From a virus (lineage: Duplodnaviria > Heunggongvirae > Uroviricota > Caudoviricetes): 64,000 nt of DNA. Below the pieces are notes generated by a model that saw only the letters and a program-made list of their open reading frames with translations, was not told the origin of the DNA and did no database searches. This document shows, piece by piece, positions 7,356 through 33,960 of this stretch (its first letter is position 1; each line of letters opens with the position of its first letter). The stretch is from IMG/VR virus record IMGVR_UViG_2721755728_000011. One strand, 5' to 3'. The position numbers and the translations under genes were made by a program.

Positions 7356-7372
7356 TTTTGTGGAGAAAGTTA

Positions 7373-13587: not shown

Positions 13588-13613
<26 letters not shown>
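13068..13613 (+). CDS. nu1: Terminase small subunit Nu1
   Basis: 181 aa, MEVNKKQLADIFGASIRTIQNWQEQG..., matches remembered lambda Nu1. Confidence 0.95.
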
Positions 13614-17294
<3,681 letters not shown>

Positions 17295-17314
<20 letters not shown>

Positions 17315-18614
17315 TCTCCCGCATATTGCCAGCATGGCCTTTAATGAGCCGCTGATGCTTGAACCCGCCTATGCGCGGGTTTTCTTTTGTGCGCTTGCAG
17401 GCCAGCTTGGGATCAGCCGCCTGACGGATGCGGTGTCCGGCGACAGCCTGACTGCCCAGGAGGCACTCGCGACGCTGGCATTATCCGGTGATGATGACGG
17501 ACCACGACAGGCCCGCAGTTATCAGGTCATGAACGGCATCGCCGTGCTGCCGGTGTCCGGCACGCTGGTCAGCCGGACGCGGGCGCTGCAGCCGTACTCG
17601 GGGATGACCGGTTACAACGGCATTATCGCCCGTCTGCAACAGGCTGCCAGCGATCCGATGGTGGACGGCATTCTGCTCGATATGGACACGCCCGGCGGGA
17701 TGGTGGCGGGGGCATTTGACTGCGCTGACATCATCGCCCGTGTGCGTGACATAAAACCGGTATGGGCGCTTGCCAACGACATGAACTGCAGTGCAGGTCA
17801 GTTGCTTGCCAGTGCCGCCTCCCGGCGTCTGGTCACGCAGACCGCCCGGACAGGCTCCATCGGCGTCATGATGGCTCACAGTAATTACGGTGCTGCGCTG
17901 GAGAAACAGGGTGTGGAAATCACGCTGATTTACAGCGGCAGCCATAAGGTGGATGGCAACCCCTACAGCCATCTTCCGGATGACGTCCGGGAGACACTGC
18001 AGTCCCGGATGGACGCAACCCGCCGGATGTTTGCGCAGAAGGTGTCGGCATATACCGGCCTGTCCGTGCAGGCTGTGCTGGATACCGAGGCTGCAGTGTA
18101 CAGCGGTCAGGAGGCCATTGATGCCGGACTGGCTGATGAACTTGTTAACAGCACCGATGCGATCACCGTCATGCGTGATGCACTGGATGCACGTAAATCC
18201 CGTCTCTCAGGAGGGCGAATGACCAAAGAGACTCAATCAACAACTGTTTCAGCCACTGCTTCGCAGGCTGACGTTACTGACGTGGGGCCAGCGACGGAGG
18301 GCGAGAACGCCAGCGCGGCGCAGCCGGACGTGAACGCGCAGATCACCGCAGCGGTTGCGGCAGAAAACAGCCGCATTATGGGGATCCTCAACTGTGAGGA
18401 GGCTCACGGACGCGAAGAACAGGCACGCGTGCTGGCAGAAACCCCCGGTATGACCGTGAAAACGGCCCGCCGCATTCTGGCCGCAGCACCACAGAGTGCA
18501 CAGGCGCGCAGTGACACTGCGCTGGATCGTCTGATGCAGGGGGCACCGGCACCGCTGGCTGCAGGTAACCCGGCATCTGATGCCGTTAACGATTTGCTGA
18601 ACACACCAGTGTAA
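17295..18614 (+). CDS. C: Head maturation protease / scaffold C (includes nested Nu3)
   Basis: GTG start giving (M)TAELRNLPHIASMAFNEP...; track ORF extends upstream in frame. Confidence 0.9.
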
Positions 18615-18623
18615 GGGATGTTT

Positions 18624-18956
18624 ATGACGAGCAAAGAAACCTTTACCCATTACCAGCCGCAGGGCAACAGTGACCCGGCTCATACCGCAACCGCGCCCGG
18701 CGGATTGAGTGCGAAAGCGCCTGCAATGACCCCGCTGATGCTGGACACCTCCAGCCGTAAGCTGGTTGCGTGGGATGGCACCACCGACGGTGCTGCCGTT
18801 GGCATTCTTGCGGTTGCTGCTGACCAGACCAGCACCACGCTGACGTTCTACAAGTCCGGCACGTTCCGTTATGAGGATGTGCTCTGGCCGGAGGCTGCCA
18901 GCGACGAGACGAAAAAACGGACCGCGTTTGCCGGAACGGCAATCAGCATCGTTTAA
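18624..18956 (+). CDS. D: Head decoration protein D
   Basis: 110 aa [27 protein letters not shown]..., lambda gpD. Confidence 0.95.
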
Positions 18957-18976
18957 CTTTACCCTTCATCACTAAA

Positions 18977-18998
18977 GGCCGCCTGTGCGGCTTTTTTT
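18977..18998 (+). terminator. Intrinsic terminator hairpin between D and E
   Basis: ggccgc-ctgt-gcggc stem followed by 7 T. Confidence 0.55.
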
Positions 18999-19011
18999 AC
19001 GGGATTTTTTT

Positions 19012-20037
19012 ATGTCGATGTACACAACCGCCCAACTGCTGGCGGCAAATGAGCAGAAATTTAAGTTTGATCCGCTGTTTCTGCGTCTCTTTTTCCGTGA
19101 GAGCTATCCCTTCACCACGGAGAAAGTCTATCTCTCACAAATTCCGGGACTGGTAAACATGGCGCTGTACGTTTCGCCGATTGTTTCCGGTGAGGTTATC
19201 CGTTCCCGTGGCGGCTCCACCTCTGAATTTACGCCGGGATATGTCAAGCCGAAGCATGAAGTGAATCCGCAGATGACCCTGCGTCGCCTGCCGGATGAAG
19301 ATCCGCAGAATCTGGCGGACCCGGCTTACCGCCGCCGTCGCATCATCATGCAGAACATGCGTGACGAAGAGCTGGCCATTGCTCAGGTCGAAGAGATGCA
19401 GGCAGTTTCTGCCGTGCTTAAGGGCAAATACACCATGACCGGTGAAGCCTTCGATCCGGTTGAGGTGGATATGGGCCGCAGTGAGGAGAATAACATCACG
19501 CAGTCCGGCGGCACGGAGTGGAGCAAGCGTGACAAGTCCACGTATGACCCGACCGACGATATCGAAGCCTACGCGCTGAACGCCAGCGGTGTGGTGAATA
19601 TCATCGTGTTCGATCCGAAAGGCTGGGCGCTGTTCCGTTCCTTCAAAGCCGTCAAGGAGAAGCTGGATACCCGTCGTGGCTCTAATTCCGAGCTGGAGAC
19701 AGCGGTGAAAGACCTAGGTAAAGCGGTGTCCTATAAGGGGATGTATGGCGATGTGGCCATCGTCGTGTATTCCGGACAGTACGTGGAAAACGGCGTCAAA
19801 AAGAACTTCCTGCCGGACAACACGATGGTGCTGGGGAACACTCAGGCACGCGGTCTGCGCACCTATGGCTGCATTCAGGATGCGGACGCACAGCGCGAAG
19901 GCATTAACGCCTCTGCCCGTTACCCGAAAAACTGGGTGACCACCGGCGATCCGGCGCGTGAGTTCACCATGATTCAGTCAGCACCGCTGATGCTGCTGGC
20001 TGACCCTGATGAGTTCGTGTCCGTACAACTGGCGTAA
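19012..20037 (+). CDS. E: Major capsid protein E
   Basis: 341 aa MSMYTTAQLLAANEQKFKFDPLFLRLFFRESYPF..., lambda gpE. Confidence 0.95.
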   Translation: MSMYTTAQLLAANEQKFKFDPLFLRLFFRESYPFTTEKVYLSQIPGLVNMALYVSPIVSGEVIRSRGGSTSEFTPGYVKPKHEVNPQMTLRRLPDEDPQNLADPAYRRRRIIMQNMRDEELAIAQVEEMQAVSAVLKGKYTMTGEAFDPVEVDMGRSEENNITQSGGTEWSKRDKSTYDPTDDIEAYALNASGVVNIIVFDPKGWALFRSFKAVKEKLDTRRGSNSELETAVKDLGKAVSYKGMYGDVAIVVYSGQYVENGVKKNFLPDNTMVLGNTQARGLRTYGCIQDADAQREGINASARYPKNWVTTGDPAREFTMIQSAPLMLLADPDEFVSVQLA

Positions 20038-20041
20038 TCAT

Positions 20042-20063
20042 GGCCCTTCGGGGCCATTGTTTC
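20042..20063 (+). terminator. Hairpin terminator after E (ggccc-ttcg-gggcc then T-rich)
   Basis: UUCG tetraloop hairpin immediately after the E stop codon. Confidence 0.5.
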
Positions 20064-20078
20064 TCTGTGGAGGAGTCC

Positions 20079-20477
20079 ATGACGAAAGATGAACTGATTG
20101 CCCGTCTCCGCTCGCTGGGTGAACAACTGAACCGTGATGTCAGCCTGACGGGGACGAAAGAAGAACTGGCGCTCCGTGTGGCAGAGCTGGAAGAGGAGCT
20201 TGATGACACGGATGAAACTGCCGGTCAGGACACCCCTCTCAGCCGGGAAAATGTGCTGACCGGACATGAAAATGAGGTGGGATCAGCGCAGCCGGATACC
20301 GTGATTCTGGATACGTCTGAACTGGTCACGGTCGTGGCACTGGTGAAGCTGCATACTGATGCACTTCACGCCACGCGGGATGAACCTGTGGCATTTGTGC
20401 TGCCGGGAACGGCGTTTCGTGTCTCTGCCGGTGTGGCAGCCGAAATGACAGAGCGCGGCCTGGCCAGAATGCAATAA
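20079..20477 (+). CDS. Fi: DNA-packaging / head assembly protein Fi
   Basis: 132 aa MTKDELIARLRSLGEQLNRDV..., lambda Fi. Confidence 0.9.
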   Translation: MTKDELIARLRSLGEQLNRDVSLTGTKEELALRVAELEEELDDTDETAGQDTPLSRENVLTGHENEVGSAQPDTVILDTSELVTVVALVKLHTDALHATRDEPVAFVLPGTAFRVSAGVAAEMTERGLARMQ

Positions 20478-20488
20478 CGGGAGGCGCT

Positions 20489-20842
20489 GTGGCTGATTTC
20501 GATAACCTGTTCGATGCTGCCATTGCCCGCGCCGATGAAACGATACGCGGGTACATGGGAACGTCAGCCACCATTACATCCGGTGAGCAGTCAGGTGCGG
20601 TGATACGTGGTGTTTTTGATGACCCTGAAAATATCAGCTATGCCGGACAGGGCGTGCGCGTTGAAGGCTCCAGCCCGTCCCTGTTTGTCCGGACTGATGA
20701 GGTGCGGCAGCTGCGGCGTGGAGACACGCTGACCATCGGTGAGGAAAATTTCTGGGTAGATCGGGTTTCGCCGGATGATGGCGGAAGTTGTCATCTCTGG
20801 CTTGGACGGGGCGTACCGCCTGCCGTTAACCGTCGCCGCTGA
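20489..20842 (+). CDS. FII: Head-tail connector protein FII
   Basis: 117 aa, GTG start, (M)ADFDNLFDAAIARADETIRGYMG..., lambda FII. Confidence 0.9.
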   Translation: MADFDNLFDAAIARADETIRGYMGTSATITSGEQSGAVIRGVFDDPENISYAGQGVRVEGSSPSLFVRTDEVRQLRRGDTLTIGEENFWVDRVSPDDGGSCHLWLGRGVPPAVNRRR

Positions 20843-20853
20843 AAGGGGGATGT

Positions 20854-21432
20854 ATGGCCATAAAAGGTCTTGAGCAGGCCGTTGAAAACCTCAGCCGTAT
20901 CAGCAAAACGGCGGTGCCTGGTGCCGCCGCAATGGCCATTAACCGCGTTGCTTCATCCGCGATATCGCAGTCGGCGTCACAGGTTGCCCGTGAGACAAAG
21001 GTACGCCGGAAACTGGTAAAGGAAAGGGCCAGGCTGAAAAGGGCCACGGTCAAAAATCCGCAGGCCAGAATCAAAGTTAACCGGGGGGATTTGCCCGTAA
21101 TCAAGCTGGGTAATGCGCGGGTTGTCCTTTCGCGCCGCAGGCGTCGTAAAAAGGGGCAGCGTTCATCCCTGAAAGGTGGCGGCAGCGTGCTTGTGGTGGG
21201 TAACCGTCGTATTCCCGGCGCGTTTATTCAGCAACTGAAAAATGGCCGGTGGCATGTCATGCAGCGTGTGGCCGGGAAAAACCGTTACCCCATTGATGTG
21301 GTGAAAATCCCGATGGCGGTGCCGCTGACCACGGCGTTTAAACAAAATATTGAGCGGATACGGCGTGAACGTCTTCCGAAAGAGCTGGGCTATGCGCTGC
21401 AGCATCAACTGAGGATGGTAATAAAGCGATGA
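20854..21432 (+). CDS. Z: Tail completion protein Z
   Basis: 192 aa MAIKGLEQAVENLSRISKTAVPG..., lambda Z. Confidence 0.9.
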   Translation: MAIKGLEQAVENLSRISKTAVPGAAAMAINRVASSAISQSASQVARETKVRRKLVKERARLKRATVKNPQARIKVNRGDLPVIKLGNARVVLSRRRRRKKGQRSSLKGGGSVLVVGNRRIPGAFIQQLKNGRWHVMQRVAGKNRYPIDVVKIPMAVPLTTAFKQNIERIRRERLPKELGYALQHQLRMVIKR

Positions 21433-21824
21433 AACATACTGAACTCCGTGCAGCCGTACTGGATGCACTGGAGAAGCATGACACCGGGGCGACGTTTTTT
21501 GATGGTCGCCCCGCTGTTTTTGATGAGGCGGATTTTCCGGCAGTTGCCGTTTATCTCACCGGCGCTGAATACACGGGCGAAGAGCTGGACAGCGATACCT
21601 GGCAGGCGGAGCTGCATATCGAAGTTTTCCTGCCTGCTCAGGTGCCGGATTCAGAGCTGGATGCGTGGATGGAGTCCCGGATTTATCCGGTGATGAGCGA
21701 TATCCCGGCACTGTCAGATTTGATCACCAGTATGGTGGCCAGTGGCTATGACTACCGGCGCGACGATGATGCGGGCCTGTGGAGTTCAGCCGATCTGACT
21801 TATGTCATTACCTATGAAATGTGA
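21429..21824 (+). CDS. U: Tail terminator protein U
   Basis: 131 aa, lambda U. Confidence 0.9.
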
Positions 21825-21831
21825 GGACGCT

Positions 21832-22572
21832 ATGCCTGTACCAAATCCTACAATGCCGGTGAAAGGTGCCGGGACCACCCTGTGGGTTTATAAGGGGAGC
21901 GGTGACCCTTATGCGAATCCGCTTTCAGACGTTGACTGGTCGCGTCTGGCAAAAGTTAAAGACCTGACGCCCGGCGAACTGACCGCTGAGTCCTATGACG
22001 ACAGCTATCTCGATGATGAAGATGCAGACTGGACTGCGACCGGGCAGGGGCAGAAATCTGCCGGAGATACCAGCTTCACGCTGGCGTGGATGCCCGGAGA
22101 GCAGGGGCAGCAGGCGCTGCTGGCGTGGTTTAATGAAGGCGATACCCGTGCCTATAAAATCCGCTTCCCGAACGGCACGGTCGATGTGTTCCGTGGCTGG
22201 GTCAGCAGTATCGGTAAGGCGGTGACGGCGAAGGAAGTGATCACCCGCACGGTGAAAGTCACCAATGTGGGACGTCCGTCGATGGCAGAAGATCGCAGCA
22301 CGGTAACAGCGGCAACCGGCATGACCGTGACGCCTTCCAGCACCTCGGTGGTGAAAGGGCAGAGCACCACGCTGACCGTGGCCTTCCAGCCGGAGGGCGT
22401 AACCGACAAGAGCTTTCGTGCGGTGTCTGCGGATAAAACAAAAGCCACCGTGTCGGTCAGTGGTATGACCATCACCGTGAACGGCGTTGCTGCAGGCAAG
22501 GTCAACATTCCGGTTGTATCCGGTAATGGTGAGTTTGCTGCGGTTGCAGAAATTACCGTCACCGCCAGTTAA
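21832..22572 (+). CDS. V: Major tail tube protein V
   Basis: 246 aa [22 protein letters not shown]..., lambda V with C-terminal Ig-like domain. Confidence 0.95.
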
Positions 22573-22587
22573 TCCGGAGAGTCAGCG

Positions 22588-23010
22588 ATGTTCCTGAAAA
22601 CCGAATCATTTGAACATAACGGTGTGACCGTCACGCTTTCTGAACTGTCAGCCCTGCAGCGCATTGAGCATCTCGCCCTGATGAAACGGCAGGCAGAACA
22701 GGCGGAGTCAGACAGCAACCGGAAGTTTACTGTGGAAGACGCCATCAGAACCGGCGCGTTTCTGGTGGCGATGTCCCTGTGGCATAACCATCCGCAGAAG
22801 ACGCAGATGCCGTCCATGAATGAAGCCGTTAAACAGATTGAGCAGGAAGTGCTTACCACCTGGCCCACGGAGGCAATTTCTCATGCTGAAAACGTGGTGT
22901 ACCGGCTGTCTGGTATGTATGAGTTTGTGGTGAATAATGCCCCTGAACAGACAGAGGACGCCGGGCCCGCAGAGCCTGTTTCTGCGGGAAAGTGTTCGAC
23001 GGTGAGCTGA
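22588..23010 (+). CDS. G: Tail assembly chaperone G
   Basis: 140 aa MFLKTESFEHNGVTVTLSELSALQRIEHLALMKR..., lambda G. Confidence 0.9.
   Translation: MFLKTESFEHNGVTVTLSELSALQRIEHLALMKRQAEQAESDSNRKFTVEDAIRTGAFLVAMSLWHNHPQKTQMPSMNEAVKQIEQEVLTTWPTEAISHAENVVYRLSGMYEFVVNNAPEQTEDAGPAEPVSAGKCSTVS
22986..22992 (+). promoter_or_regulatory. Programmed -1 ribosomal frameshift slippery heptamer GGGAAAG (G to GT)
   Basis: Heptamer at the G/T overlap, as in lambda. Confidence 0.8.
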
Positions 23011-23426
23011 GTTTTGCCCTGAAACTGGCGCGTGAGATGGGGCGACCCGACTGGCGTGCCATGCTTGCCGGGATGTCATCCACGGAGTATGCCGACTGGC
23101 ACCGCTTTTACAGTACCCATTATTTTCATGATGTTCTGCTGGATATGCACTTTTCCGGGCTGACGTACACCGTGCTCAGCCTGTTTTTCAGCGATCCGGA
23201 TATGCATCCGCTGGATTTCAGTCTGCTGAACCGGCGCGAGGCTGACGAAGAGCCTGAAGATGATGTGCTGATGCAGAAAGCGGCAGGGCTTGCCGGAGGT
23301 GTCCGCTTTGGCCCGGACGGGAATGAAGTTATCCCCGCTTCCCCGGATGTGGCGGACATGACGGAGGATGACGTAATGCTGATGACAGTATCAGAAGGGA
23401 TCGCAGGAGGAGTCCGGTATGGCTGA
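22992..23426 (+). CDS. T: T portion of tail assembly chaperone GT (frameshift product)
   Basis: 144-aa -1 frame ORF overlapping G end; lambda T-like. Confidence 0.85.
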   Translation: MFDGELSFALKLAREMGRPDWRAMLAGMSSTEYADWHRFYSTHYFHDVLLDMHFSGLTYTVLSLFFSDPDMHPLDFSLLNRREADEEPEDDVLMQKAAGLAGGVRFGPDGNEVIPASPDVADMTEDDVMLMTVSEGIAGGVRYG

Positions 23427-24765
23427 ACCGGTAGGCGATCTGGTCGTTGATTTGAGTCTGGATGCGGCCAGATTTGACGAGCAGATGGCCAGAGTCAGGC
23501 GTCATTTTTCCGGTACGGAAAGTGATGCGAAAAAAACAGCGGCAGTCGTTGAACAGTCGCTGAGCCGACAGGCGCTGGCTGCACAGAAAGCGGGGATTTC
23601 CGTCGGGCAGTATAAAGCCGCCATGCGTATGCTGCCTGCACAGTTCACCGACGTGGCCACGCAGCTTGCAGGCGGGCAAAGTCCGTGGCTGATCCTGCTG
23701 CAACAGGGGGGGCAGGTGAAGGACTCCTTCGGCGGGATGATCCCCATGTTCAGGGGGCTTGCCGGTGCGATCACCCTGCCGATGGTGGGGGCCACCTCGC
23801 TGGCGGTGGCGACCGGTGCGCTGGCGTATGCCTGGTATCAGGGCAACTCAACCCTGTCCGATTTCAACAAAACGCTGGTCCTTTCCGGCAATCAGGCGGG
23901 ACTGACGGCAGATCGTATGCTGGTCCTGTCCAGAGCCGGGCAGGCGGCAGGGCTGACGTTTAACCAGACCAGCGAGTCACTCAGCGCACTGGTTAAGGCG
24001 GGGGTAAGCGGTGAGGCTCAGATTGCGTCCATCAGCCAGAGTGTGGCGCGTTTCTCCTCTGCATCCGGCGTGGAGGTGGACAAGGTCGCTGAAGCCTTCG
24101 GGAAGCTGACCACAGACCCGACGTCGGGGCTGACGGCGATGGCACGCCAGTTCCATAACGTGACGACGGAGCAGATTGCGTATGTTGCTCAGTTGCAGCG
24201 TTCCGGCGATGAAGCCGGGGCATTGCAGGCGGCGAACGAGGCCGCAACGAAAGGGTTTGATGACCAGACCCGCCGCCTGAAAGAGAACATGGGCACGCTG
24301 GAGACCTGGGCAGACAGGACTGCGCGGGCATTCAAATCCATGTGGGATGCGGTGCTGGATATCGGTCGTCCTGATACCGCGCAGGAGATGCTGATTAAGG
24401 CAGAGGCTGCGTTTAAGAAAGCAGACGACATCTGGAATCTGCGCAAGGATGATTATTTTGTTAACGATGAAGCGCGGGCGCGTTACTGGGATGATCGTGA
24501 AAAGGCCCGTCTTGCGCTTGAAGCCGCCCGAAAGAAGGCTGAGCAGCAGACTCAACAGGACAAAAATGCGCAGCAGCAGAGCGATACCGAAGCGTCACGG
24601 CTGAAATATACCGAAGAGGCGCAGAAGGCTTACGAACGGCTGCAGACGCCGCTGGAGAAATATACCGCCCGTCAGGAAGAACTGAACAAGGCACTGAAAG
24701 ACGGGAAAATCCTGCAGGCGGATTACAACACGCTGATGGCGGCGGCGAAAAAGGATTATGAAGGG
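23419..24765 (+). pseudogene. H: Tape-measure protein H, 5' portion only (about codons 1..448)
   Basis: Matches remembered lambda H through ...LMAAAKKDYE, then runs into antisense of the other H copy; the 574-aa track ORF is read-through. Confidence 0.85.
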
Positions 24766-24775
24766 CCTTATTCAG
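24755..24775. other. Inverted (tail-to-tail) junction between two truncated H genes
   Basis: Plus-strand H homology ends at about 24762; minus-strand H homology ends at about 24764; no shared flanking sequence. Confidence 0.8.
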
Positions 24776-26056
24776 TTCTTCCTGACGGGCGGTATATTTC
24801 TCCAGCGGCGTCAGCAGACGCTCATACGCCTTCTGCGCCTCTCCGGTATACTTCAGCTGTGATGCGTCCCGTTCGGCCCGGTCCCTGGCGGCCAGTTCAC
24901 CGGCTTTTTCCATATCCGACTGCAGCGTGGCCGCTGCCAGCCCCAGACGGGCATTTTCCCGGTCATTCCATGCACCCTGAAGGTTCGCACGAAAAGAGGC
25001 GGTTTTTCCCCGGCGCTGGCTCCGGCTCTGGTACCACTGCCATTTTTTATCCGCCTCATCAAATGCCTTCTGTGCACTGGCGAGCATATCCGCTGAGGAC
25101 TCAGGACGACCGATATCCAGAATGGCATCCCACATCGATTTGAATGCCTTCCCGGTTTTATCCGCCCAGGTCTCCAGTGTCCCCATGTTTTCTTTCAGGC
25201 GACGGGTCTGCTCATCAAAGCCTTTCGTGGCGATATCGTTCGCCGCCTGTAAGGCCCCGGCCTCATCACCGGAACGCTGCAGCTGCGCAACATACGCAAT
25301 CTGCTCTGCCGTCACGTTACGGAACTGGCGCGCCATCGCCATCAGCCCCGACGTCGGGTCGGTGGTCAGTTTTCCGAAAGCCTCTGCAACCTTGTCCACC
25401 TCCACACCGGATGCAGAAGCAAAACGCGCGACACTCTGGTTGATGGCATCAAACTGTTCACCACCACGCACACCGGCATTCACCAGGGCTGCCAGTGACT
25501 CACTCGCCTGGTTAAACGTCAGCCCTGCGGCCTGTCCGGCTCTGGAGAGCGTCAGCATGCGATCGGCAGTCAGTCCGGACTGATTACCGGAAAGAACCAG
25601 GGTTTTATTAAACGCTGAAAGCGTGGAATCCCCCTGGTACCAGGCGTACGCCAGCGCACCTGTCGCCACCGCCAGCGAGGTGACCCCGACCATCGGCAGG
25701 GTGATCGCACCGGCAAGCCCCCTGAACATGGGGATCATCCCGCCGAAGGAGTCCTTCACCTGACCGCCCTGTTGCAGCAGGATCAGCCAGGGATTCTGAC
25801 CACCGGCAAGCTGCGTGGCGATATCCGTAAACTGTGCGGGCAGGGTTCGCATGGCCGCTTTATACTGCCCGACGGAAATCCCGGCTTTTTGTGCAGCCAG
25901 CGCCTGGCGGCTCAGGCCCTGTTCAACAGCACTGGCGGTTTTTCTGGCGTCGGTATCCAGACCTGAAAAATGACGCCTTACCCGGCTCATCTGCTCATCG
26001 AAACGGACCGCATCCAGACTAAGGTCAATAACAAGATCACCAACCGGCTGGGACAT
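24764..26056 (-). pseudogene. H: Tape-measure protein H (segment C copy), 5' portion only (about codons 1..431)
   Basis: Minus-strand ORF matches H through ...YTARQEELNKAL, then reads antisense of segment B H. Confidence 0.85.
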
Positions 26057-26450
26057 ATCTCACACCTCCGGAAATCCCCGCTGAAGCCATCATTAATGCG
26101 GCATCATCCACCATGACATCCGCCACATCCGCAGACGATAAAATATCGCGCCCTCCGTCCCCACCGAACCGGACGCCTCCGGCAAGTCCTGCCGCTTTCT
26201 GCATCAGCATTTTGTCCTCATCCGGCCTCTCCACCTGCTCTTCCTCATGCCGGGGGACAAGCAGACTGAAATCAGAGGGATGCATATCCGGATCGCAAAA
26301 AAACAGGCTGAGTACAGCGTACGTCAGCCCGGAAAAATGCATATCCAACTGGGTATCGTGAAAATAATGCATGCGGTAAAAATGTCGCCAGTCGGCATAT
26401 TCGGTGGATGTCATCCCGGCAAGCATGGCGCGCCAGTCAGGCCTCCCCAT
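26037..26450 (-). CDS. T: T portion of tail assembly chaperone GT
   Basis: Homologue of lambda T; overlaps G. Confidence 0.8.
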   Translation of the reverse strand: MGRPDWRAMLAGMTSTEYADWRHFYRMHYFHDTQLDMHFSGLTYAVLSLFFCDPDMHPSDFSLLVPRHEEEQVERPDEDKMLMQKAAGLAGGVRFGGDGGRDILSSADVADVMVDDAALMMASAGISGGVRYVPAGW

Positions 26451-26476
26451 CTCACGCGCCAGTCTGAGGGCAAAAT

Positions 26477-26908
26477 TCAGCTCGCCGTCGAAGACTTTCC
26501 CGCAGAAAAATCATCATCAGTCAGCGCGTTATTTTTCGCCACTTCGGTAATATCCGTATCCACATGAACAGGCCCGCTCATCCCGGACAGACGCAACACC
26601 ACATCTTCCGCCCGGGCAATGGCATCAGCAGGCCAGGTGGTCAGGACTTCCTGCTCAATCTGCATCACGGCCTCATTCATTGACGGTGACCCCGTTTTCT
26701 GCGGATGGTTATGCCACAGGGACATCGCCACCAGAAACGCGCCGGTTCTGACGAGATCTTCCACGCTTACCTGCAGGTTGCCGCTGGATTCTGCCTGTTC
26801 TGCACGCCGTTTCAGGAGGGCAAGATGCTCAATACGCTGCAGCGCAGACAATTCGGAAAGCGTGACAGACACACCGTTATATTCAAATTGTTCTGTTTTC
26901 AGAAACAT
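26477..26908 (-). CDS. G: Tail assembly chaperone G
   Basis: 143 aa, lambda G-like (MFLKTEQFEYNGVSVTLSELSALQRIEHLALLKR). Confidence 0.85.
   Translation of the reverse strand: MFLKTEQFEYNGVSVTLSELSALQRIEHLALLKRRAEQAESSGNLQVSVEDLVRTGAFLVAMSLWHNHPQKTGSPSMNEAVMQIEQEVLTTWPADAIARAEDVVLRLSGMSGPVHVDTDITEVAKNNALTDDDFSAGKSSTAS
26495..26501 (-). promoter_or_regulatory. Frameshift slippery heptamer GGGAAAG (minus strand)
   Basis: ctttccc on plus strand at the G/T overlap. Confidence 0.75.
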
Positions 26909-26921
26909 GTATGACCTCCGT

Positions 26922-27674
26922 TTACCCTGCAGCGCCTGCTTCAGTAACGGTGACTTCAGCTACCGTGGCAAACTGACCATTACCGGAAATCACGGGGATA
27001 CTCACTTTTCCAGCCTTAACCCCCGTCACAGTGATCACCATATCTTTCACAGCAATGGTTCCCGTTGACGGATCGGCGGAAACCGCTCTGAACGTCTTGT
27101 CGGTTGCACTTTCCGGCTCAAAAGAAACAGTCAGGGTGGTTGTTTTTCCTTTTTCCACGGTACCGGATGTCGGTGTCACCTTAATTGCAGTGGCCGGCGT
27201 AATTTCGCTGCGTTCTTCCGCCACGGAAGGTTTGCCCACGTTGGTCACTTTCACTGTTCGGGTGATCACTTCTTTCGCCGTCACTGCCTTACCGATACTG
27301 CTGATCCAGCCACGAAACACATCCACCGTGCCATTCGGAAAACGGATTTTATAGGCCCGCACATCCCCGCTTTCAAACCAGCCTATAAGCCCTTTCTGAC
27401 CTTCTTCTCCCGGTTTCCAGGCCAGTGTAAAACTGGTATCACCTGCAGATTTCTGTCCCTGCCCGGTCGCGCTCCAGTCCGCGTCTTCATCATCCAGGTA
27501 GTTATCATCGTAGGATTCTGCCGTCATCTCGCCCGGCGTCAGATCCTTCACCTTAGCCAGTCGCTGCCAGTCATCATCTGACAACGGGTTTGCATAAGCA
27601 TCACCCTTGCCGGTGTAAACCCACAGAGTGGTACCGGCACCTTTTACCGGCGCCAGGGGATTTGGTGTTGGCAT
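26922..27674 (-). CDS. V: Major tail tube protein V
   Basis: 250 aa, lambda V-like. Confidence 0.9.
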
Positions 27675-27681
27675 ATCGTCC

Positions 27682-28077
27682 TCACATCTCGTATGTAATG
27701 GAATAAGTCAAATCTGCAGAGCTCCATAACGCCATATCGTCATCACGACGATAGTCATAGCCCTGCTGAACCATCGTGGTAATCATCCCTGCCAGTGCAG
27801 GGATCGCGGACATCGCCGGATAAATCCGGGACTCCATCCACGAATCCAGCTCTGAATCCGGCACCTGAGCAGGCAGGAAAACTTCAATATGCAGTGTGGC
27901 CCGCCAGGTATCCGCATCCAGCTCTTCACCGGTATACTCTGCATCCGTCAGATAAACCGCGACCGCGGGAAAATCCTCTTCGTCAAAAACAACGGGGCGA
28001 CCATCAAACAGCGTCGCCCCGTGTTCATGCAGCTCCAGTGCATCCAGCACTGCAGCACGGATATCAGTATGTTTCAT
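27682..28077 (-). CDS. U: Tail terminator protein U
   Basis: 131 aa, lambda U-like. Confidence 0.85.
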
Positions 28078-28607
28078 CGTTTTATCGCAATCCTCAGTTG
28101 TTGTTTCAGCGCATATGCCAGTTCTCCGGGCAGGCGTTCACGCCGGATACGGTCAACGTTTTCATCAAACGCCTGTTTCAGTGGGGCCGCCATCGGGATT
28201 TTCACCACATCAATGGGGTAACGGTTTTTCCCGGCCACACGCTGCATGACATGCCAGCGACCATTTTTTAATCGCTGAATAAATGCCCGCTGATAACGAT
28301 GCTGACCGGCTTTGAGTATGCTGTCCGGACGACGCCCCGGCATCCTGATCCCCAGCTTAATCACCGGGAGATCACCGCGGTTAACGATAATTCTGGCATT
28401 CGGATTTCTGACCGTGGCCCGTTTCAGTCTGGACCGTTCCTTTACCAGTTTCCGGCTCACCCTGGTCTCCCGGGCAACCTGTGACGAAGACTGATTAATC
28501 GCCGTTGTGGCCACGCGGTTAATGGCCATTGCTGAAGCCGCCGGAATGGCGTTTTTACGAACCCGGCTCAGATTTTCAATCGCCTGATCAAGCCCTTTTA
28601 TCGCCAT
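28074..28607 (-). CDS. Z: Tail completion protein Z
   Basis: 177 aa, lambda Z-like. Confidence 0.85.
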   Translation of the reverse strand: MAIKGLDQAIENLSRVRKNAIPAASAMAINRVATTAINQSSSQVARETRVSRKLVKERSRLKRATVRNPNARIIVNRGDLPVIKLGIRMPGRRPDSILKAGQHRYQRAFIQRLKNGRWHVMQRVAGKNRYPIDVVKIPMAAPLKQAFDENVDRIRRERLPGELAYALKQQLRIAIKR

Positions 28608-28621
28608 AATTCACCCTGCGT

Positions 28622-28975
28622 TTATCGTCGCCGGTTAACTGCCGGTGGTTGCCCACGGTTGAGCCAGAGATAACAACTGCCCCCGTCATCCGGAGAAACA
28701 CGATCCACCCAGAATGTCTCACCATTAATGGTCAGCGTGTCACCACGCCGCACAGCACGAACCGTATCCGTCCGTACAAATAATGACGGGCAGCTTCCTT
28801 CAATACGGACCCCGCTACCGGCAAACCCCAGCGACTCCGGATCGTCAAAAACCCCCTGAACTTCGCTGCCACACTGTGCCCCCGAGGTGAACTGCGCACA
28901 GAGCCCCATCACTTCAACAATCGTGCTGTCCACCCCGGCAAGGGCAGCATCAAAGGCATTCTGAAAATCACGCAT
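28622..28975 (-). CDS. FII: Head-tail connector FII
   Basis: 117 aa, lambda FII-like. Confidence 0.85.
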   Translation of the reverse strand: MRDFQNAFDAALAGVDSTIVEVMGLCAQFTSGAQCGSEVQGVFDDPESLGFAGSGVRIEGSCPSLFVRTDTVRAVRRGDTLTINGETFWVDRVSPDDGGSCYLWLNRGQPPAVNRRR

Positions 28976-29351
28976 GCTCAGCCGTTCCGTGCTGTATCAT
29001 GGCTGTCGCCAGTGGTGATGGCACCAGAACACGCATGCCCCGGTACGTCAGTTCAACGGGACGGCCTGTCTCCGGGCAATACCCCATCACATGCAGGCAT
29101 TTCCGCACACGGACCGCTTTAACATCATCCGTAGCATCAGTGTTGTGCAACTGCTCACCATCGTCTGTGTGATTTTGCTCAGGCCCGCTCTCATCACCAG
29201 GCATAATGCCCTCCCGGGAAGCAGCAAGCTCCTCTTCCCACTCAGACACACGTTGCGCAATATCCGCAGCACTCCCCGACATATCCGCCTCGCGCCCCAG
29301 CAGGCCAGCCAGTTGACGAAGACGTTTCTGATTTTCTTCTTTTGTTGCCAT
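28968..29351 (-). CDS. Fi: Fi-like head assembly protein
   Basis: Start at MATKEENQKRL; acidic protein in the Fi position, diverged from lambda Fi. Confidence 0.65.
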   Translation of the reverse strand: MATKEENQKRLRQLAGLLGREADMSGSAADIAQRVSEWEEELAASREGIMPGDESGPEQNHTDDGEQLHNTDATDDVKAVRVRKCLHVMGYCPETGRPVELTYRGMRVLVPSPLATAMIQHGTAEHA

Positions 29352-29402
29352 ATCAGCCCCCTGTGAAAAAAGACACGGGGGCATTTCGCCCCCGCTCACG
29401 GA

Positions 29403-30431
29403 TTATTTCACCTGCACCACCACAAACTCATCCGGATCCGGCAGCACCATCAGCGGTGCGGACTGCGTCATGGTAAATTCACGGGCCGGATCGCCCACGG
29501 TCAGCCAGTGTTTCGGGTAACGGGAAGAAGCCACCACACCTTCGGACAACGCCTGCGCATCCTGAATGGCACCGTAACAACGGATCCCATCTGCAGCCGT
29601 ATTTCCCAGGACCAGCGTGCCCTCCGGCAGATAACGTTTTTCGGTACCGTCCTCTGCCACATAAGACGTTTTCGCCACCACAATGGCCAGATCGCCGTAA
29701 TACCCTTTGAAAGACACCACCGCCCCCAGGTCTTTCACTGCCGTTTCGAGTTGTGAATTTGAGCCGCGACGGGTATCCAGTTTTTCGCGGAACAGCTTAA
29801 AACCATTCAGCAGACGCCAGACAGTACCGTCCATAATGGCAATATTCACAAGACCGCTGGCCTGATCGCAGTAGAGGTCAATATCATGCGTCGGATCAAA
29901 CGTATCACGGTCCTGCTCAGACCATTTTTTACCGTCGGCCTGCTCAATGTTATTTCCTTCAGAGCGTCCAAAATCCACCTCGACAGTATCAAACTGATCC
30001 CCTTCCATGGTGTATTTGCCATACAGCACGGCATTCACCGCCTGCATTTCTTCCACCTGGACAATGGCATGCTCTTCCTGTTTGAGGTTATCGGTGATGA
30101 TACGCAGACGACGGTAGGCCGGGTCGTTCAGTTGAGCCGGATCTTCACCGGGAAGACGCTCAACCGCCTGCTGGTAATTAAATTCGTGTTTCGGCTTGAC
30201 GTAGCCCGGACGTAACACGCGGGTTTCACCACCGCGATGACGCAGCACTTTTCCTTCAACAACCGGGGAGACATAGGCCGCCACCGGCGTTTTTCCGGTA
30301 ATTTTGTCCAGCATCACCTCTTCGGTATGGAAATTCACCGTACGGCGGAAAAACAGCTCCAGAAACAGCGCACGAAATTTCACTTTTTGTTCGGTATAAC
30401 CGAGTAACTGGCGGGTCGTAAACAATCCCAT
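29403..30431 (-). CDS. E: Major capsid protein E
   Basis: 342 aa, lambda E-like (…GDPAREFTM.QSAPLM.L.DPDEFV.VQ…). Confidence 0.9.
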   Translation of the reverse strand: MGLFTTRQLLGYTEQKVKFRALFLELFFRRTVNFHTEEVMLDKITGKTPVAAYVSPVVEGKVLRHRGGETRVLRPGYVKPKHEFNYQQAVERLPGEDPAQLNDPAYRRLRIITDNLKQEEHAIVQVEEMQAVNAVLYGKYTMEGDQFDTVEVDFGRSEGNNIEQADGKKWSEQDRDTFDPTHDIDLYCDQASGLVNIAIMDGTVWRLLNGFKLFREKLDTRRGSNSQLETAVKDLGAVVSFKGYYGDLAIVVAKTSYVAEDGTEKRYLPEGTLVLGNTAADGIRCYGAIQDAQALSEGVVASSRYPKHWLTVGDPAREFTMTQSAPLMVLPDPDEFVVVQVK

Positions 30432-30488
30432 AAATCAGTTCCTTTCATTCAGAAATCAGTCAGGCCACCGCGGTGGCCTGATAACGTG

Positions 30489-30836
30489 TTACGGCAGCGC
30501 CGCGTGACTCAGGGCACTGCCGGCAAAGGCATTTGCCTTTTTGTGTTCATCCACACTTTCAGGCCAGCGGATTGCCTCCGTCGCAAAGGTCCCCGACTTG
30601 TAATAGGTCAGTACCGTCTCTGTGCCTTCAAGCGGCAGTACCAGTATGCCAACTGCACTACCGGCTTTCTGTCCGTCCCAGACCACCAGTTTCCCGCTGG
30701 CTTCATCCAGCATCAGGGGCGTCAGTGCCGGTGTTGCCGAGGAAATCCCGCTGCTGCCTGTGGCGGTATGAGCCGGATCATTACCGGCAAAAATACGTAC
30801 TTCCGCACGCTGTTCAGTGATGTTTTTCGTTACCAT
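30489..30836 (-). CDS. D: Head decoration protein D
   Basis: 115 aa, gpD-like (…DPAHTATG…TPLMLD…). Confidence 0.85.
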   Translation of the reverse strand: MVTKNITEQRAEVRIFAGNDPAHTATGSSGISSATPALTPLMLDEASGKLVVWDGQKAGSAVGILVLPLEGTETVLTYYKSGTFATEAIRWPESVDEHKKANAFAGSALSHAALP

Positions 30837-30872
30837 ATTGTAAAAACCTCCTGTTGATGGTCAGCACTGACT

Positions 30873-32378
30873 TCATGGCATGGCCATGAGCATTTTCACG
30901 TCCGCATCACCGTCTGCTGACGTCTGTGGCACGCCACCCTGTACCGCAGCCGGTGAATGGTTCGCCATGATGCGTTCAAACAGGGCGGTTGTGGATGCAG
31001 AGACCGGTTCTGCCTTACCTGATCCCGCAGCCAGCACAGCCCGGGCGCTCTCCACAGTCATTCCCGGGCAGGCAGCCAGCTGTTCAGCCTGCGCCTCAGC
31101 CCCTTTTGCCTCATCCAGTGCCATGATCTGATCACGGAGTGAGGGTCCGGCATCCGCCTGCGGTGAAGCAGCCAGGATCGGGCGGGCTTTTTCCACCGTC
31201 ATCTCCGGCATCGCCGCCAGCGTTGCCGCCAGTTGTTCACGACCGTTCGCTTCTTCACACGCCATAATGCGATCGGCTTCACTCTGCGCGGATGCCACCG
31301 GCTGCTGCGGTGCCGCCGCGGCCAGAATCGCCCGGGCCTGTTCAACGCTCATGCCCTGTTGTCCTGCCAGCATCGTGGCAAGCTGTTCACGTCCTTTCGC
31401 TTCCTGGCATGTCAGGATCCCCATCACTCGCTGGTTCTCCTGCGCGGCGGCTTCCGTTGCAGTTAATTGCGGCATAGTGCCTCCTCTGACATTACTGTTC
31501 AGCGCCGTGGCCATCACACTGATGGCATCCGACGCATTGACTAATTCATCCGCCAGCCCGGCATCAATGCCGGACTGACCTTCAAAAACGGCGGCCTCTG
31601 TTCCCGTGACGGCATCAACAGACAGACCGGTAAACATCGCCACTTTTTCGGCAAACATCCGGCGCGCCGCATCAATGCGCTGCTGCATGTCCTGGCGAAC
31701 CTCTGCCGGTAAGGCTTCAAACTGATTGCCATCCACCTTGTGCGTCCCTGAGTAAATCAGCGTGATATCCACACCGGCCTGCGCCAGATGACCGGCATAG
31801 CTGACATGGCTCATCATCACGCCAATGGAGCCGATACGGGATGTCTGGGTAACCAGCCGTCGGGAGCAGGCCGACGCCAGCAGCATGGCTGCAGAACAGG
31901 CCGTGTCATTGCACAGTGCCCAGACCGGCTTCTGCTGACGGAGGCGGTAAATCATGTCAGCGCAGTCAAACGCGCCGGCGGCCTGCCCGCCCGGACTGTC
32001 AATGTCCAGCAGTACGCCCCGCACCTGGCTATCCGCCATTGCCTGCTGAAGACAGGCGACAATACCGTCATAGCCTGTCATTCCGGAAAATGGCCGCATA
32101 CCCCCCAGCCGGTGCACCAGCGTGCCGGTCACCGGCAGTACAGCAATACCGTTCACCACCCTGTAAACACGGGCCGGTCGTTTACCTCCGGCCATGTACT
32201 CGTCCGTTTCAGCCAGCATTCCGGGAGCATCAAACTGTACCTGCTGTTGTGGTACCGAAAGACTTGCTGCCCCCATCTCGCGCCCGAGCGCGCAAAAGAA
32301 AACCCGCGCATAGGCGGGCTCCAGAAGCAGCGGTTCATTGAATGCTGCGGCAATAATGTGTGAAAGATTACGTCTCAC
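30873..32378 (-). CDS. C: Head protease / scaffold C
   Basis: 501 aa, lambda C-like N-terminal S49 peptidase region, diverged repeat-rich C-terminus. Confidence 0.85.
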   Translation of the reverse strand: MRRNLSHIIAAAFNEPLLLEPAYARVFFCALGREMGAASLSVPQQQVQFDAPGMLAETDEYMAGGKRPARVYRVVNGIAVLPVTGTLVHRLGGMRPFSGMTGYDGIVACLQQAMADSQVRGVLLDIDSPGGQAAGAFDCADMIYRLRQQKPVWALCNDTACSAAMLLASACSRRLVTQTSRIGSIGVMMSHVSYAGHLAQAGVDITLIYSGTHKVDGNQFEALPAEVRQDMQQRIDAARRMFAEKVAMFTGLSVDAVTGTEAAVFEGQSGIDAGLADELVNASDAISVMATALNSNVRGGTMPQLTATEAAAQENQRVMGILTCQEAKGREQLATMLAGQQGMSVEQARAILAAAAPQQPVASAQSEADRIMACEEANGREQLAATLAAMPEMTVEKARPILAASPQADAGPSLRDQIMALDEAKGAEAQAEQLAACPGMTVESARAVLAAGSGKAEPVSASTTALFERIMANHSPAAVQGGVPQTSADGDADVKMLMAMP

Positions 32379-33960
32379 GGGGTGTTGTCTCCTCTTCCGG
32401 CCTGCGACTCTCCGCTATCTGCTGCTGATACGCCTGCGCTATCCACACCGGACGTGAGAGTCCGGCTTTTTGCCGCTCTGCAGATTCCCTGACCTGCTGG
32501 CGGAAAATGTCCTGATAATCCTCGCCCATCAGCGCCAGCTCTTTCTCATACGTGCTCAGTCCGGCCTCAATGCGCATCACCGATTCCTGAACCTCCTTGA
32601 GCCCGTCAATGGCCATTCTTCCGGCACCAATCCACTCTGCCCGTGACCAGGCTGATCGCGCCTGATAAAAATCAAAACGCGCCCGTGGCGGACGGATAAT
32701 CCCCCGAAGAAGTGCCTCTTCCAGCCAGCAGGAAAACATCTGCGTGGCCAGCCGGGCCGCAATAAATTTTCGCCGCCCCATAAAATAGCGCCACGACTCA
32801 TTGGCAGAGGCCCTGGCACTTGAATAACTGACCTTCGAGTAATCACGGGACAACTGTTCGTAGGAAACGCCAAGACCGGCGGCGATATACCGCAGCAGCG
32901 CCTGTTCAAGCGCAGAAAATCCATTGTCTGAATCCTGCGCAGTCTGTAGTTTCAGATCATCACCAGGGAAAAGGTGCGGAATTTTGACACCGCCCAGTGT
33001 CACGTTATTCGTGTCATACCAGCTGGAGAACTTCTCCAGAATATTAATAAGCGGATTATCCTTCTGCTCCTGTGGCGCGCCGGCGATATATTCAAAGGCC
33101 TTTTCGGTATCAAGTTCACTTTCAATCGTCGCTGCATACATGGCTTTCACAATGGCCGACTGAAGCTGTGTTGCCTGCAGGGAATCCAGCATCTTCAGCC
33201 GTTCCATGACGCTGTAAAACTGATTAGCCCCACGGGTCTGCCCGTCCTCCACCGGCTCGAAAATATGCAGCATGGCCGGACGCCCGGTGGGAAGTTCACG
33301 CGGGATCCGTTCCCATCGTCCACTCCCGGAGCGAGGAAAATCATCCTCACAGATATGGTACGCAACGGCACGGCCATATCGATCGACCTCCACCCCGGCC
33401 CGCAGAAAACGGTTCCCCATACCGTGTCCTGGCGTGTCCACCCGTTTCGGACTCACGGCTTTAAAACGCGTACGGAATAACTGCGTGGTTTCCGTATCCC
33501 AGACCGGCTGCACAAAGATTTCGCCGTTAAACGCATGAACGCCAACACCTTCACGGATAAACTCCGTAAATGTGCGTTTTCCTTCCACGTCGATCTCGCC
33601 AGACATCCCTTCTGCGTATTCCGACCAGGCCGCCTCCACCTCATCGACAAAGCTTTTTGCTGCGGTCTCCCGCATCCCCAGCCAGCGCCAGTTCGGACGG
33701 TAGCTGATCAGAAACATATGCCCGACAATGTGATCCTTATGCAGGGCCACCGCATTAGCCGCTATTCCGTTATTGCGCACCAGATCATCTGCCCGGGCAT
33801 TCCCCAGACGCAACGCGGGCAGCAGGGCCGCATCGACACTCTGCGCCGGTGGCAACCACTCCGCCATTTGCCCGCCAAATCCTGCGCCGCCCCCGTTGTA
33901 GCTGAGACTCTCACGAAGCGGAACGCCGTTCACATCAATCAGGACAGGCGTTCGTTTCAT
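32368..33960 (-). CDS. B: Portal protein B
   Basis: 530 aa, gpB-like. Confidence 0.9.
   Translation of the reverse strand: MKRTPVLIDVNGVPLRESLSYNGGGAGFGGQMAEWLPPAQSVDAALLPALRLGNARADDLVRNNGIAANAVALHKDHIVGHMFLISYRPNWRWLGMRETAAKSFVDEVEAAWSEYAEGMSGEIDVEGKRTFTEFIREGVGVHAFNGEIFVQPVWDTETTQLFRTRFKAVSPKRVDTPGHGMGNRFLRAGVEVDRYGRAVAYHICEDDFPRSGSGRWERIPRELPTGRPAMLHIFEPVEDGQTRGANQFYSVMERLKMLDSLQATQLQSAIVKAMYAATIESELDTEKAFEYIAGAPQEQKDNPLINILEKFSSWYDTNNVTLGGVKIPHLFPGDDLKLQTAQDSDNGFSALEQALLRYIAAGLGVSYEQLSRDYSKVSYSSARASANESWRYFMGRRKFIAARLATQMFSCWLEEALLRGIIRPPRARFDFYQARSAWSRAEWIGAGRMAIDGLKEVQESVMRIEAGLSTYEKELALMGEDYQDIFRQQVRESAERQKAGLSRPVWIAQAYQQQIAESRRPEEETTPRET

What the first reader, a model, noticed from the sequence alone, without database searches (positions are those of the whole stretch)
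24740..24790. Tail-to-tail fusion of two 5' halves of tape-measure gene H
The plus-strand H follows lambda H up to about codon 448 (…LMAAAKKDYE) and the minus-strand H up to about codon 431 (…YTARQEELNKAL); they meet head-on near 24760..24766 with no shared junction sequence. The long track ORFs (574 and 531 aa) are each read-through into antisense of the other copy. No 3' H, M, L, K, I, J or tail-fibre genes exist for either prophage in the window. Homologous recombination between inverted H copies would give intact hybrid genes, so this needs an illegitimate inverted join, or it is an assembly chimera across near-identical repeats.
Basis: partly seen in the sequence, partly recalled or inferred. 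Interest (0 to 1): 0.75.

Follow-up and report, generated by a model that had tools for sequence, protein, structure and literature searches.

The report
Misassembled join of two tape-measure genes
The head-on meeting of two half tape-measure genes is in the deposited sequence, but it is almost certainly an assembly error in which contigs that stopped at repeat boundaries were butt-joined.

Summary
At window 24762-24764, codons 1-448 of a lambda-type H gene (+ strand) abut codons 1-431 of a second, 81%-identical H gene (- strand).

The window is E. coli strain C7, NZ_CP010240.1. The junction occurs in 1 of 5,426 complete E. coli genomes, which is C7 itself, and in no viral or metagenome contig.

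Both fragments stop where the two H genes turn from divergent into near-identical sequence. A second join of the same kind lies at 6955/6956, between two 5'-truncated DUF968 genes. There each arm ends on the first base that tells the two copies apart, at the edge of a 470-nt shared repeat.

Everything left of the H junction also exists elsewhere in the same record:
- Window 6955-24763 (17,809 nt) has no mismatch to the ompT-site prophage, where H runs on intact into M-L-K-I-J.
- Window 1-6955 is the end of a 24,464-nt exact duplicate.
- At the ompT site the 470-nt DUF968 repeat is missing.

Three related genomes (OkiPb01675, JB2, C3) carry the tor-site prophage intact, and OkiPb01675 also carries the ompT-site prophage intact.

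Verdict: a repeat-induced mis-join, not a real feature. Read-level proof was not available.

The parts
1..6955 (-). End of a 24,464-nt exact duplicate ('block X'). It holds the late and regulatory genes of an ssrA-side prophage: part of terminase, DUF1441, the lysis genes, a DNA methyltransferase, antiterminator Q (5790-6542) and a DUF968 3' fragment (6556-6955).
   Evidence: No mismatch to the copy at record 2.902-2.927 Mb. The annotation shows the same proteins and the same two frameshifted pseudogenes in both copies.
6955..6956 (.). Junction J1: two 5'-truncated DUF968 genes joined head to head. Each arm ends on its own allele of the first base that distinguishes the copies, at the edge of a 470-nt shared repeat.
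   Evidence: I7: 395-nt arms, 95% complementary, 2 nt apart. (alignment A4, column 698). PGAP labels both genes 'partial in the middle of a contig'. Among the records listed, only C7 matches across the join. The junction string is absent from viral and metagenome contigs.
6956..24763 (+). Segment M: an exact second copy of part of the ompT-site (DLP12-type) prophage. It runs from the DUF968 3' fragment through quuD, the porin gene, the lysis genes, terminase, and the head and tail genes to H codon 448.
   Evidence: Window 6955-24763 against record 277,878-260,070: 17,809 nt, 0 mismatches, 0 gaps. One mismatch in 17,808 nt against OkiPb01675.
23419..24763 (+). 5' part of tape-measure gene H (codons 1-448), DLP12/lambda type.
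   Evidence: 445/448 aa identical to lambda H. 1345/1345 nt identical to the full-length H at the ompT site of the same record. TMP_2 domain present.
24762..24764 (.). Junction J2, the reported finding: a tail-to-tail butt join of the two H 5' parts. Two bases could belong to either arm.
   Evidence: A match spanning the junction is found in 1 of 5,426 genomes. The junction string has 0 hits in viral and metagenome contigs.
24764..26056 (-). 5' part of the second tape-measure gene H' (codons 1-431), tor-site prophage type.
   Evidence: 100% identical to JB2 and 99.9% to OkiPb01675, where the gene is full length. 75% identical to lambda H. It ends 0-2 nt after the last base that differs from the other H type (column 1293).
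24764..64000 (-). Segment R: the tor-site prophage from H' codon 431 back through its head, terminase, lysis, Q, nin, replication and immunity genes to the integrase. torS follows just past the window end.
   Evidence: Window 24762-45705 is 99.6% identical to the OkiPb01675 tor-site prophage.

Best explanation
The junction is an assembly artefact in the deposited 'complete' genome of E. coli C7.

The strain carries several lambdoid prophages that share long, near-identical modules:
- The 3' ~1.1 kb of H plus gene M is shared by the ompT-site and tor-site prophages.
- A 470-nt stretch of DUF968 is shared by the ompT-site and ssrA-side prophages.
- A J-to-L block is shared by the tor-site and ssrA-side prophages.

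The assembler could not pass through these repeats, so unique contigs ended at the repeat edges. During scaffolding or finishing, contig ends that border the same side of a repeat were joined directly to each other. This amounts to a U-turn at a repeat node. It produced the tail-to-tail H|H' join and the head-to-head DUF968|DUF968 join. It also placed a 17.8-kb and a 24.5-kb segment in the record twice.

Shown: the sequence facts listed under evidence. Inferred: that the cause is the assembly process. The reads and the assembly method were not available.

The real tor-site prophage most likely runs H'-M-L-...-J-torT, as in related strains.
For: 1. The junction-spanning sequence occurs only in C7 among 5,426 complete E. 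coli genomes. The 38-nt junction strings of J2 and J1 have 0 hits in IMG/VR and in JGI metagenome contigs. The natural continuation of H is found in 62 IMG/VR contigs.

2. The breakpoints sit on repeat edges. In OkiPb01675 the two H genes are ~81% alike up to column 1293, then nearly identical for ~1,100 nt. C7's minus fragment ends at column 1293-1295. The plus fragment ends at column 1363, which is 7 nt after the only nearby distinguishing SNP.

3. At J1 both arms end on the SNP at column 698, which bounds a 470-nt stretch identical in the two DUF968 types.

4. At the ompT site of the same record exactly those 470 nt are missing, with the flanks joined at the two bounding SNPs. In each of the listed genomes, the matching stretch spans 771 nt where C7 has 301.

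5. Window 6955-24763 is a 17,809-nt copy, with no mismatch, of the ompT-site prophage, where H continues intact into M-L-K-I-J-ompT.

6. Window 1-6955 is the end of a 24,464-nt exact duplicate. The other copy continues normally through a complete DUF968 gene and the early genes.

7. Related complete genomes hold the prophages intact at their own loci: OkiPb01675 holds both, and JB2 and C3 hold the tor-site one. C3 comes from the same strain series. Protein accessions are almost all identical to C7's.

8. These patterns are the repeat collapse/expansion and rearrangement/inversion classes of mis-assembly described in PMC2397507.
Against: No reads, coverage data or assembly-method record could be examined, so the artefact is inferred from sequence structure alone. 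No paper describing the C7 assembly was found.

The plus H fragment overruns the last known distinguishing SNP by 7 nt, or by 70 nt if C7's tor-type H carries T at column 1356 as C3's does. The DUF968 ends have no such overrun. No single simple trimming rule explains all the ends.

A recent real duplication would also give copies with no mismatch.
Confidence: 0.94

Rival explanations
1. The junctions are real. Strain C7 underwent a complex rearrangement, for example replication template switching or fold-back repair. This copied 17.8 kb of the ompT-site prophage and 24.5 kb of the ssrA-side prophage into the tor-site prophage through two illegitimate inverted joins.
For: The record is deposited as a complete genome and kept in RefSeq. 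The 2-nt overlap at J2 is compatible with microhomology. Exact identity of the copies would fit a very recent event.
Against: At least six independent break ends fall within 0-7 nt of the points where paralogous prophage sequence turns into identical repeat (two at J1, two at J2, two at the ompT-site deletion). A physical breakage process has no reason to do this.

The shared homologous stretch is lost rather than kept at the joins. No other genome, viral contig or metagenome contig shows either junction. The same 470-nt repeat is cleanly absent at a third place in the record.
Confidence: 0.04
2. The local joins are artefacts, but they sit inside a real ~2-Mb chromosomal inversion. That inversion would have formed by homologous recombination between the oppositely oriented J-to-L block shared by the tor-site and ssrA-side prophages.
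For: In the record, torT adjoins a coherent recombinant prophage that ends at the integrase next to glaH. torS lies 2.1 Mb away, on the ssrA side. The shared block is in inverted orientation at the two loci, which is what such recombination needs.
Against: The same wrong exit from the shared block would be produced by mis-scaffolding. OkiPb01675 and C3 have torS and torT flanking one prophage. The inversion would be strongly asymmetric about the terminus; this is my estimate from K-12 map positions, not a tool result.

This rival concerns the large-scale order only. It does not rescue J1 or J2.
Confidence: 0.25
3. The junction was formed by homologous recombination between inverted H genes, that is, an ordinary prophage-mediated inversion.
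For: The two H genes share a ~1.1-kb near-identical 3' part that could support recombination.
Against: Recombination within homology gives intact hybrid genes that keep the shared stretch. Here the shared stretch is absent and two 5' halves are joined tail to tail. In OkiPb01675 the two H genes lie in direct, not inverted, orientation.
Confidence: 0.01

Closest known systems
Repeat-induced mis-assembly: the mis-join/inversion and collapse/expansion classes of Phillippy, Schatz and Pop 2008 (PMC2397507)
   Same: Breakpoints lie at the edges of multi-copy repeats. Unique segments are wrongly oriented and wrongly neighboured. One short repeat copy is lost and two unique segments are present in an extra copy. 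The result could be mistaken for a biological rearrangement, as that paper warns.
   Different: The classical inversion mis-assembly flips the sequence between two inverted repeat copies and keeps the repeats. Here the repeat itself is skipped and two contigs bordering the same side of it are butt-joined, which gives paralogous 'palindromes'. The read-level signatures that define the class could not be examined.
Tandem inversion duplications and fold-back inverted duplications in bacteria (recalled from the literature on Salmonella and E. coli; not checked here)
   Same: They contain head-to-head and tail-to-tail junctions with little or no junction homology, together with duplicated DNA.
   Different: In those events the two arms of a junction are copies of the same locus, and the joins form at short quasi-palindromes. 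Here the arms are different prophages (81-95% identical), and the breakpoints track boundaries between paralogous repeats.
Prophage-mediated chromosomal inversions in E. coli with many lambdoid prophages (general knowledge)
   Same: They involve lambdoid prophages at different chromosomal sites that share long identical modules.
   Different: Those inversions arise by homologous recombination and leave intact hybrid prophage genes. J1 and J2 leave truncated genes and lack the shared segment.

Membership tests
Repeat-induced assembly mis-join | Breakpoints coincide with boundaries of sequence repeated elsewhere in the genome. | tested here: met
   J1: both arms end on the SNP at column 698, which bounds a 470-nt identical stretch. 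J2: the arms end at columns 1293-1295 and 1363, at the start of a ~1.1-kb near-identical stretch. The 24.5-kb duplicate starts 1 nt after the last difference between the two J genes.
Repeat-induced assembly mis-join | The joined segments occur in a normal, uninterrupted context elsewhere, either in the same assembly or in close relatives. | tested here: met
   The + H copy continues into M-L-K-I-J-ompT at record 246-261 kb. The - H copy is full length in OkiPb01675, JB2 and C3.
Repeat-induced assembly mis-join | Copy-number errors: a collapsed or missing repeat, or extra copies of unique sequence. | tested here: met
   The 470-nt DUF968 repeat is missing at the ompT site. The record holds exact extra copies of 17,809 nt and 24,464 nt.
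Repeat-induced assembly mis-join | Read-level signatures: no spanning reads, discordant mate pairs, abnormal depth. | not testable with these tools
   No reads or assembly metadata were accessible, and no paper on the assembly was found.
Lambda-type tail tape-measure protein (gpH; Pfam TMP_2 PF06791) | N-terminal TMP_2 domain and colinearity with lambda H. | tested here: met
   TMP_2 E-values of 4.5e-70 and 2.2e-69. 445/448 aa and 75% identity to lambda H over the N-terminal half.
Lambda-type tail tape-measure protein (gpH; Pfam TMP_2 PF06791) | Full-length gene (~853 aa) followed by M, L, K, I and J. | tested here: not met
   Both window copies stop at codons 448 and 431, and no M-J genes lie in the window.
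Tandem inversion duplication / fold-back inverted duplication | The two arms of a junction are inverted copies of the same sequence. | tested here: not met
   The arms are paralogues from different prophages: 95% identical at J1, 81-89% at J2.
Inversion by homologous recombination between prophages | The junction lies inside shared homology and leaves intact hybrid genes. | tested here: not met
   The shared stretch is absent and both genes are truncated.

The most novel reading that the evidence does not exclude
Strain C7 really carries a compound inverted-duplication scar. In this reading, pieces of two other resident prophages were copied into the tor-site prophage by template-switching replication, and the switches were steered to the points where homeologous prophage sequence becomes identical. 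That would be a new way in which co-resident lambdoid prophages reshuffle.
Probability: 0.04. Interest if true: 0.55.

Novelty: not a real feature. Interest (0 to 1): 0.06.

Why it matters
Biologically, very little. The real content is three ordinary lambdoid prophages that share modules.

Practically, it matters in four ways:
- A RefSeq 'complete genome' (NZ_CP010240.1) carries about 42 kb of falsely duplicated prophage DNA.
- It carries at least five false truncated pseudogenes.
- It has a 470-nt deletion inside DUF968 at the ompT site.
- It may carry a false 2-Mb inversion.

Prophage censuses, mosaicism studies and rearrangement surveys that use this record would inherit these errors. One study of lambdoid phage mosaicism drew prophages from this record (PMC9836094).

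The case also gives a simple sequence-only test for such errors. The signs are paired truncated paralogues whose ends sit on repeat-boundary SNPs, together with exact second copies elsewhere in the record.

Tried and rejected
- Literature searches for CP010240, the assembly accession and sibling accessions found no description of how C7 was sequenced or assembled.
- Look-ups of the two chimeric read-through ORF products (574 and 531 aa) in the public gene-position collection found nothing. This says only that no other assembly holds them.
I then passed locus sequence into Python through alignments. Later I found that all loci had been available in /data all along, bundled several to a file.
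- I considered a simple inversion of segment 6956-24763. Un-inverting it would put a DUF968 fragment next to an H fragment, which makes no sense, so I rejected it.
- I considered a PacBio missed-adapter palindrome and rejected it, because the arms are different paralogues rather than self-complementary copies.
- I considered leftover contigs appended at the end of the record and rejected it, because the window is flanked by ordinary chromosome (ssrA on one side, torS-hya on the other).
- I tried to explain all the contig ends by a single k-mer overlap-trimming rule. A value of k=71 would fit the 70-nt overhang at J2 if the tor-type H has T at column 1356. It does not fit the flush ends at DUF968, so I left it as speculation.

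Full report
**Source and observation.** The window is record positions 4,962,774-5,026,773 of NZ_CP010240.1, Escherichia coli strain C7 (cow), deposited as a complete chromosome.

- The + strand ORF 23419-25143 follows lambda H for residues 1-448 at 445/448 identity.
- The - strand ORF 26056-24461 follows lambda H for residues 1-425 at 75% identity.
- Both carry the Pfam TMP_2 domain.
- BLAST against 5,426 complete E. coli genomes places the end of the + copy at window 24763 and the start of the - copy at 24762. The copies therefore abut with two ambiguous bases and no shared junction sequence.
- PGAP annotates both as tape-measure pseudogenes, 'partial in the middle of a contig; missing C-terminus'.

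**The junction is unique to this record.** A match spanning the junction exists in one genome of 5,426, which is C7 itself. Each half alone matches thousands of genomes at up to 100%. The 38-nt string across the junction has no exact match in IMG/VR viral contigs or in JGI metagenome contigs. As a positive control, the natural continuation of the same H gene is found in 62 IMG/VR contigs. The two chimeric read-through ORF products are not on record in the public gene-position collection.

**What close relatives look like.** OkiPb01675 (NZ_AP042478.1, bovine) carries both prophages intact, with protein accessions almost all identical to C7's.
- One prophage sits at the DLP12/ompT site: ...DUF968-quuD-porin-lysis-terminase-...-H-M-L-K-I-J-...-ompT.
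- The other sits between torS and torT: int-...-Q-lysis-terminase-...-H'-M-L-Arc-Ant-K-I-J-...-EspJ-torT.

Window 6956-24763 differs from the OkiPb01675 ompT-site prophage by one base in 17,808. Window 24762-45705 is 99.6% identical to its tor-site prophage. JB2 also has the tor-site H' full length and followed by M and L. So does C3, a cow isolate whose accession and locus-tag prefix suggest the same sequencing project.

**The breakpoints sit on repeat edges.** I aligned the two intact OkiPb01675 H genes with the two C7 fragments. The genes are about 81% alike up to alignment column 1293. From there they are nearly identical for about 1,100 nt, with five SNPs at columns 1356, 1533, 1536, 1566 and 1584. 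They diverge again near the 3' end.

C7's minus fragment ends at column 1293-1295, which is on or 2 nt past the last differing base. The plus fragment ends at column 1363, 7 nt past the SNP at 1356. In C3 the tor-type H carries the same base as the other type at column 1356. In this lineage the identical stretch may therefore begin right after column 1293.

**A second junction of the same kind.** At window 6955/6956 two 5'-truncated DUF968 genes meet head to head. The repeat finder reports 395-nt arms, 95% complementary and 2 nt apart (I7). PGAP calls both 'partial in the middle of a contig; missing N-terminus'.

Alignment with intact copies shows that the two DUF968 types are identical between SNPs at columns 227 and 698, a stretch of 470 nt. 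The minus arm ends on its own allele (C) of column 698, at window 6955. The plus arm starts on its own allele (T) of column 698, at window 6956. Both arms thus end on the first base that distinguishes the two copies. The junction string is absent from viral and metagenome contigs.

**Everything left of the H junction is a second copy.**
- Window 6955-24763 is identical, with 0 mismatches and 0 gaps over 17,809 nt, to record 277,878-260,070. That region is the ompT-site prophage of the same assembly. There H is full length and followed by M, L, K, I, J and ompT.
- Window 1-6955 is the end of a 24,464-nt stretch (record 4,945,265-4,969,728) identical to record 2,926,574-2,902,111. The duplicate begins one base after the last difference between the two J genes and ends at J1.
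- The other copy of that stretch continues normally through a complete DUF968 gene, the early genes and an integrase.
- At the ompT site itself, DUF968 is again a 396-nt 3' fragment. Exactly the 470 shared nucleotides are missing, and the flanks are joined at the two bounding SNPs. In each of the listed genomes, the matching stretch spans 771 nt where C7 has 301.

**Interpretation.** The tail region of the tor-site prophage consists of two adjacent long repeats with no unique sequence between them. The first is H-3'/M/L, shared with the ompT-site prophage: 98.7% identical to OkiPb01675's tor type over 2.4 kb and 99.9% to relatives. The second is L-Arc-Ant-K-I-J-5', shared with the ssrA-side prophage. 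An assembler that cannot span these repeats leaves segment R (H' 5' part to int-torS) with a dangling end at the H repeat edge.

In an assembly graph, segments R and M both attach to the same end of the H-3' repeat node. Segment M and block X both attach to the same end of the DUF968 repeat node. Joining such 'sibling' contigs directly gives exactly the observed chain: block X (reversed) | M | R (reversed). The chain has paralogous palindromes at both joins, and both M and X are used twice.

[quoted passage not shown] The sequence facts are shown. The attribution to the assembly process is inferred, because no reads or method description were available.

**Why a real event is unlikely.** Homologous recombination would keep the shared stretch and give intact hybrids. 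In addition, the two H genes lie in direct orientation in OkiPb01675. An illegitimate event would need at least six break ends to fall within 0-7 nt of the transitions from divergent to identical sequence. These are two at J1, two at J2 and two at the ompT-site deletion. By my rough estimate, assuming uniform breakpoints over a ~40-kb prophage with a few tens of such boundaries, the chance is far below 1e-6. Known inverted-duplication mechanisms join a sequence to its own inverted copy, not to a paralogue. I give a real junction about 4%.

**Loose ends.** The plus H fragment runs 7 nt into the repeat, or 70 nt if column 1356 is not a difference in C7. The DUF968 ends are flush. No single trimming rule explains both. 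A k-mer size of 71 with one-sided overlap removal would fit J2 only.

Whether the large-scale order in the record is real or part of the same error cannot be decided here. In that order the torT side lies at 2.93 Mb next to a glaH-side prophage, and the torS side lies at 5.03 Mb next to ssrA. This amounts to a ~2-Mb inversion relative to OkiPb01675.

**Verdict.** The 'assembly chimera' alternative is supported and the 'illegitimate inverted join' alternative is not. This is not a real biological feature, and interest is low. It is useful as a warning about this RefSeq record.

Noticed in passing
window 6955-6956 (arms 6560-6954 and 6957-7351): A second paralogous 'palindrome': two 5'-truncated DUF968 genes joined head to head. 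Each arm ends on the SNP that bounds a 470-nt shared repeat. It is the same kind of join as the reported H junction.
   Followed up: yes
L008 42873-43005 (NZ_CP010240.1 ~277,873-278,005, ompT-site prophage): At its proper chromosomal site, C7's DUF968 gene lacks exactly the 470 nt shared with the other DUF968 type, and the flanks are joined at the two bounding SNPs. This is a third break at the same repeat.
   Followed up: yes
window 1-6955 and upstream; record 4,945,265-4,969,728 vs 2,926,574-2,902,111 (L004, L006, L007): A 24,464-nt prophage block (from inside J to mid-DUF968) is present twice in the record with no mismatch, including the same two frameshifted pseudogenes (terminase large subunit, DUF2190).
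   Followed up: yes
record 2.89-2.94 Mb (L006, L007) and 4.93-5.03 Mb (L004, window, L005): In the record, torT adjoins a prophage whose integrase end lies next to glaH, while torS adjoins the ssrA side 2.1 Mb away. This is an apparent ~2-Mb inversion relative to OkiPb01675 and K-12 gene order. It could be a real recombination between the shared J-to-L block or part of the same mis-scaffolding.
   Followed up: partly
window 23419-26056; L002 19160-21721; L003 18716-21295: A natural mosaic boundary lies inside the tape-measure gene. In an intact relative, the two H genes are ~81% alike for codons 1-431 and nearly identical for the next ~365 codons. This is a genuine module boundary in mid-gene, well downstream of the TMP_2 domain (residues 54-256).
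   Followed up: partly
window 6556-6955 (-) vs 6956-7355 (+): All 20 nucleotide differences between the two DUF968 3' fragments are synonymous. PGAP assigns the same protein accession (WP_001360050.1) to full-length copies of both DNA types.
   Followed up: partly
L008 23853-26414 (C7 ompT-site H, WP_073520345.1): The full-length H at the ompT site is a hybrid. It is DLP12-type up to column 1584 and tor-type from column 2391 on, followed by a tor-type M and then a DLP12-type L. C3 has a 99.9% identical arrangement at the same coordinates, so the hybrid is probably natural in this lineage. It lengthens the repeat shared by the two prophages.
   Followed up: partly
window 46949-48162 and 49183-50396: Two IS3-family insertion sequences lie in the early region of the tor-site prophage. 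One splits ninB into two annotated fragments. A published study excluded one CP010240.1 prophage because it contained an insertion element (PMC9836094).
   Followed up: no
window 2430-3402 / 9616-10588 / 38451-39281; 12468-12919 / 36741-37192: Further long inverted repeats (89-98% identical) link the lysis genes and the regions upstream of terminase in the three prophage pieces. They show how much sequence the co-resident prophages share.
   Followed up: no
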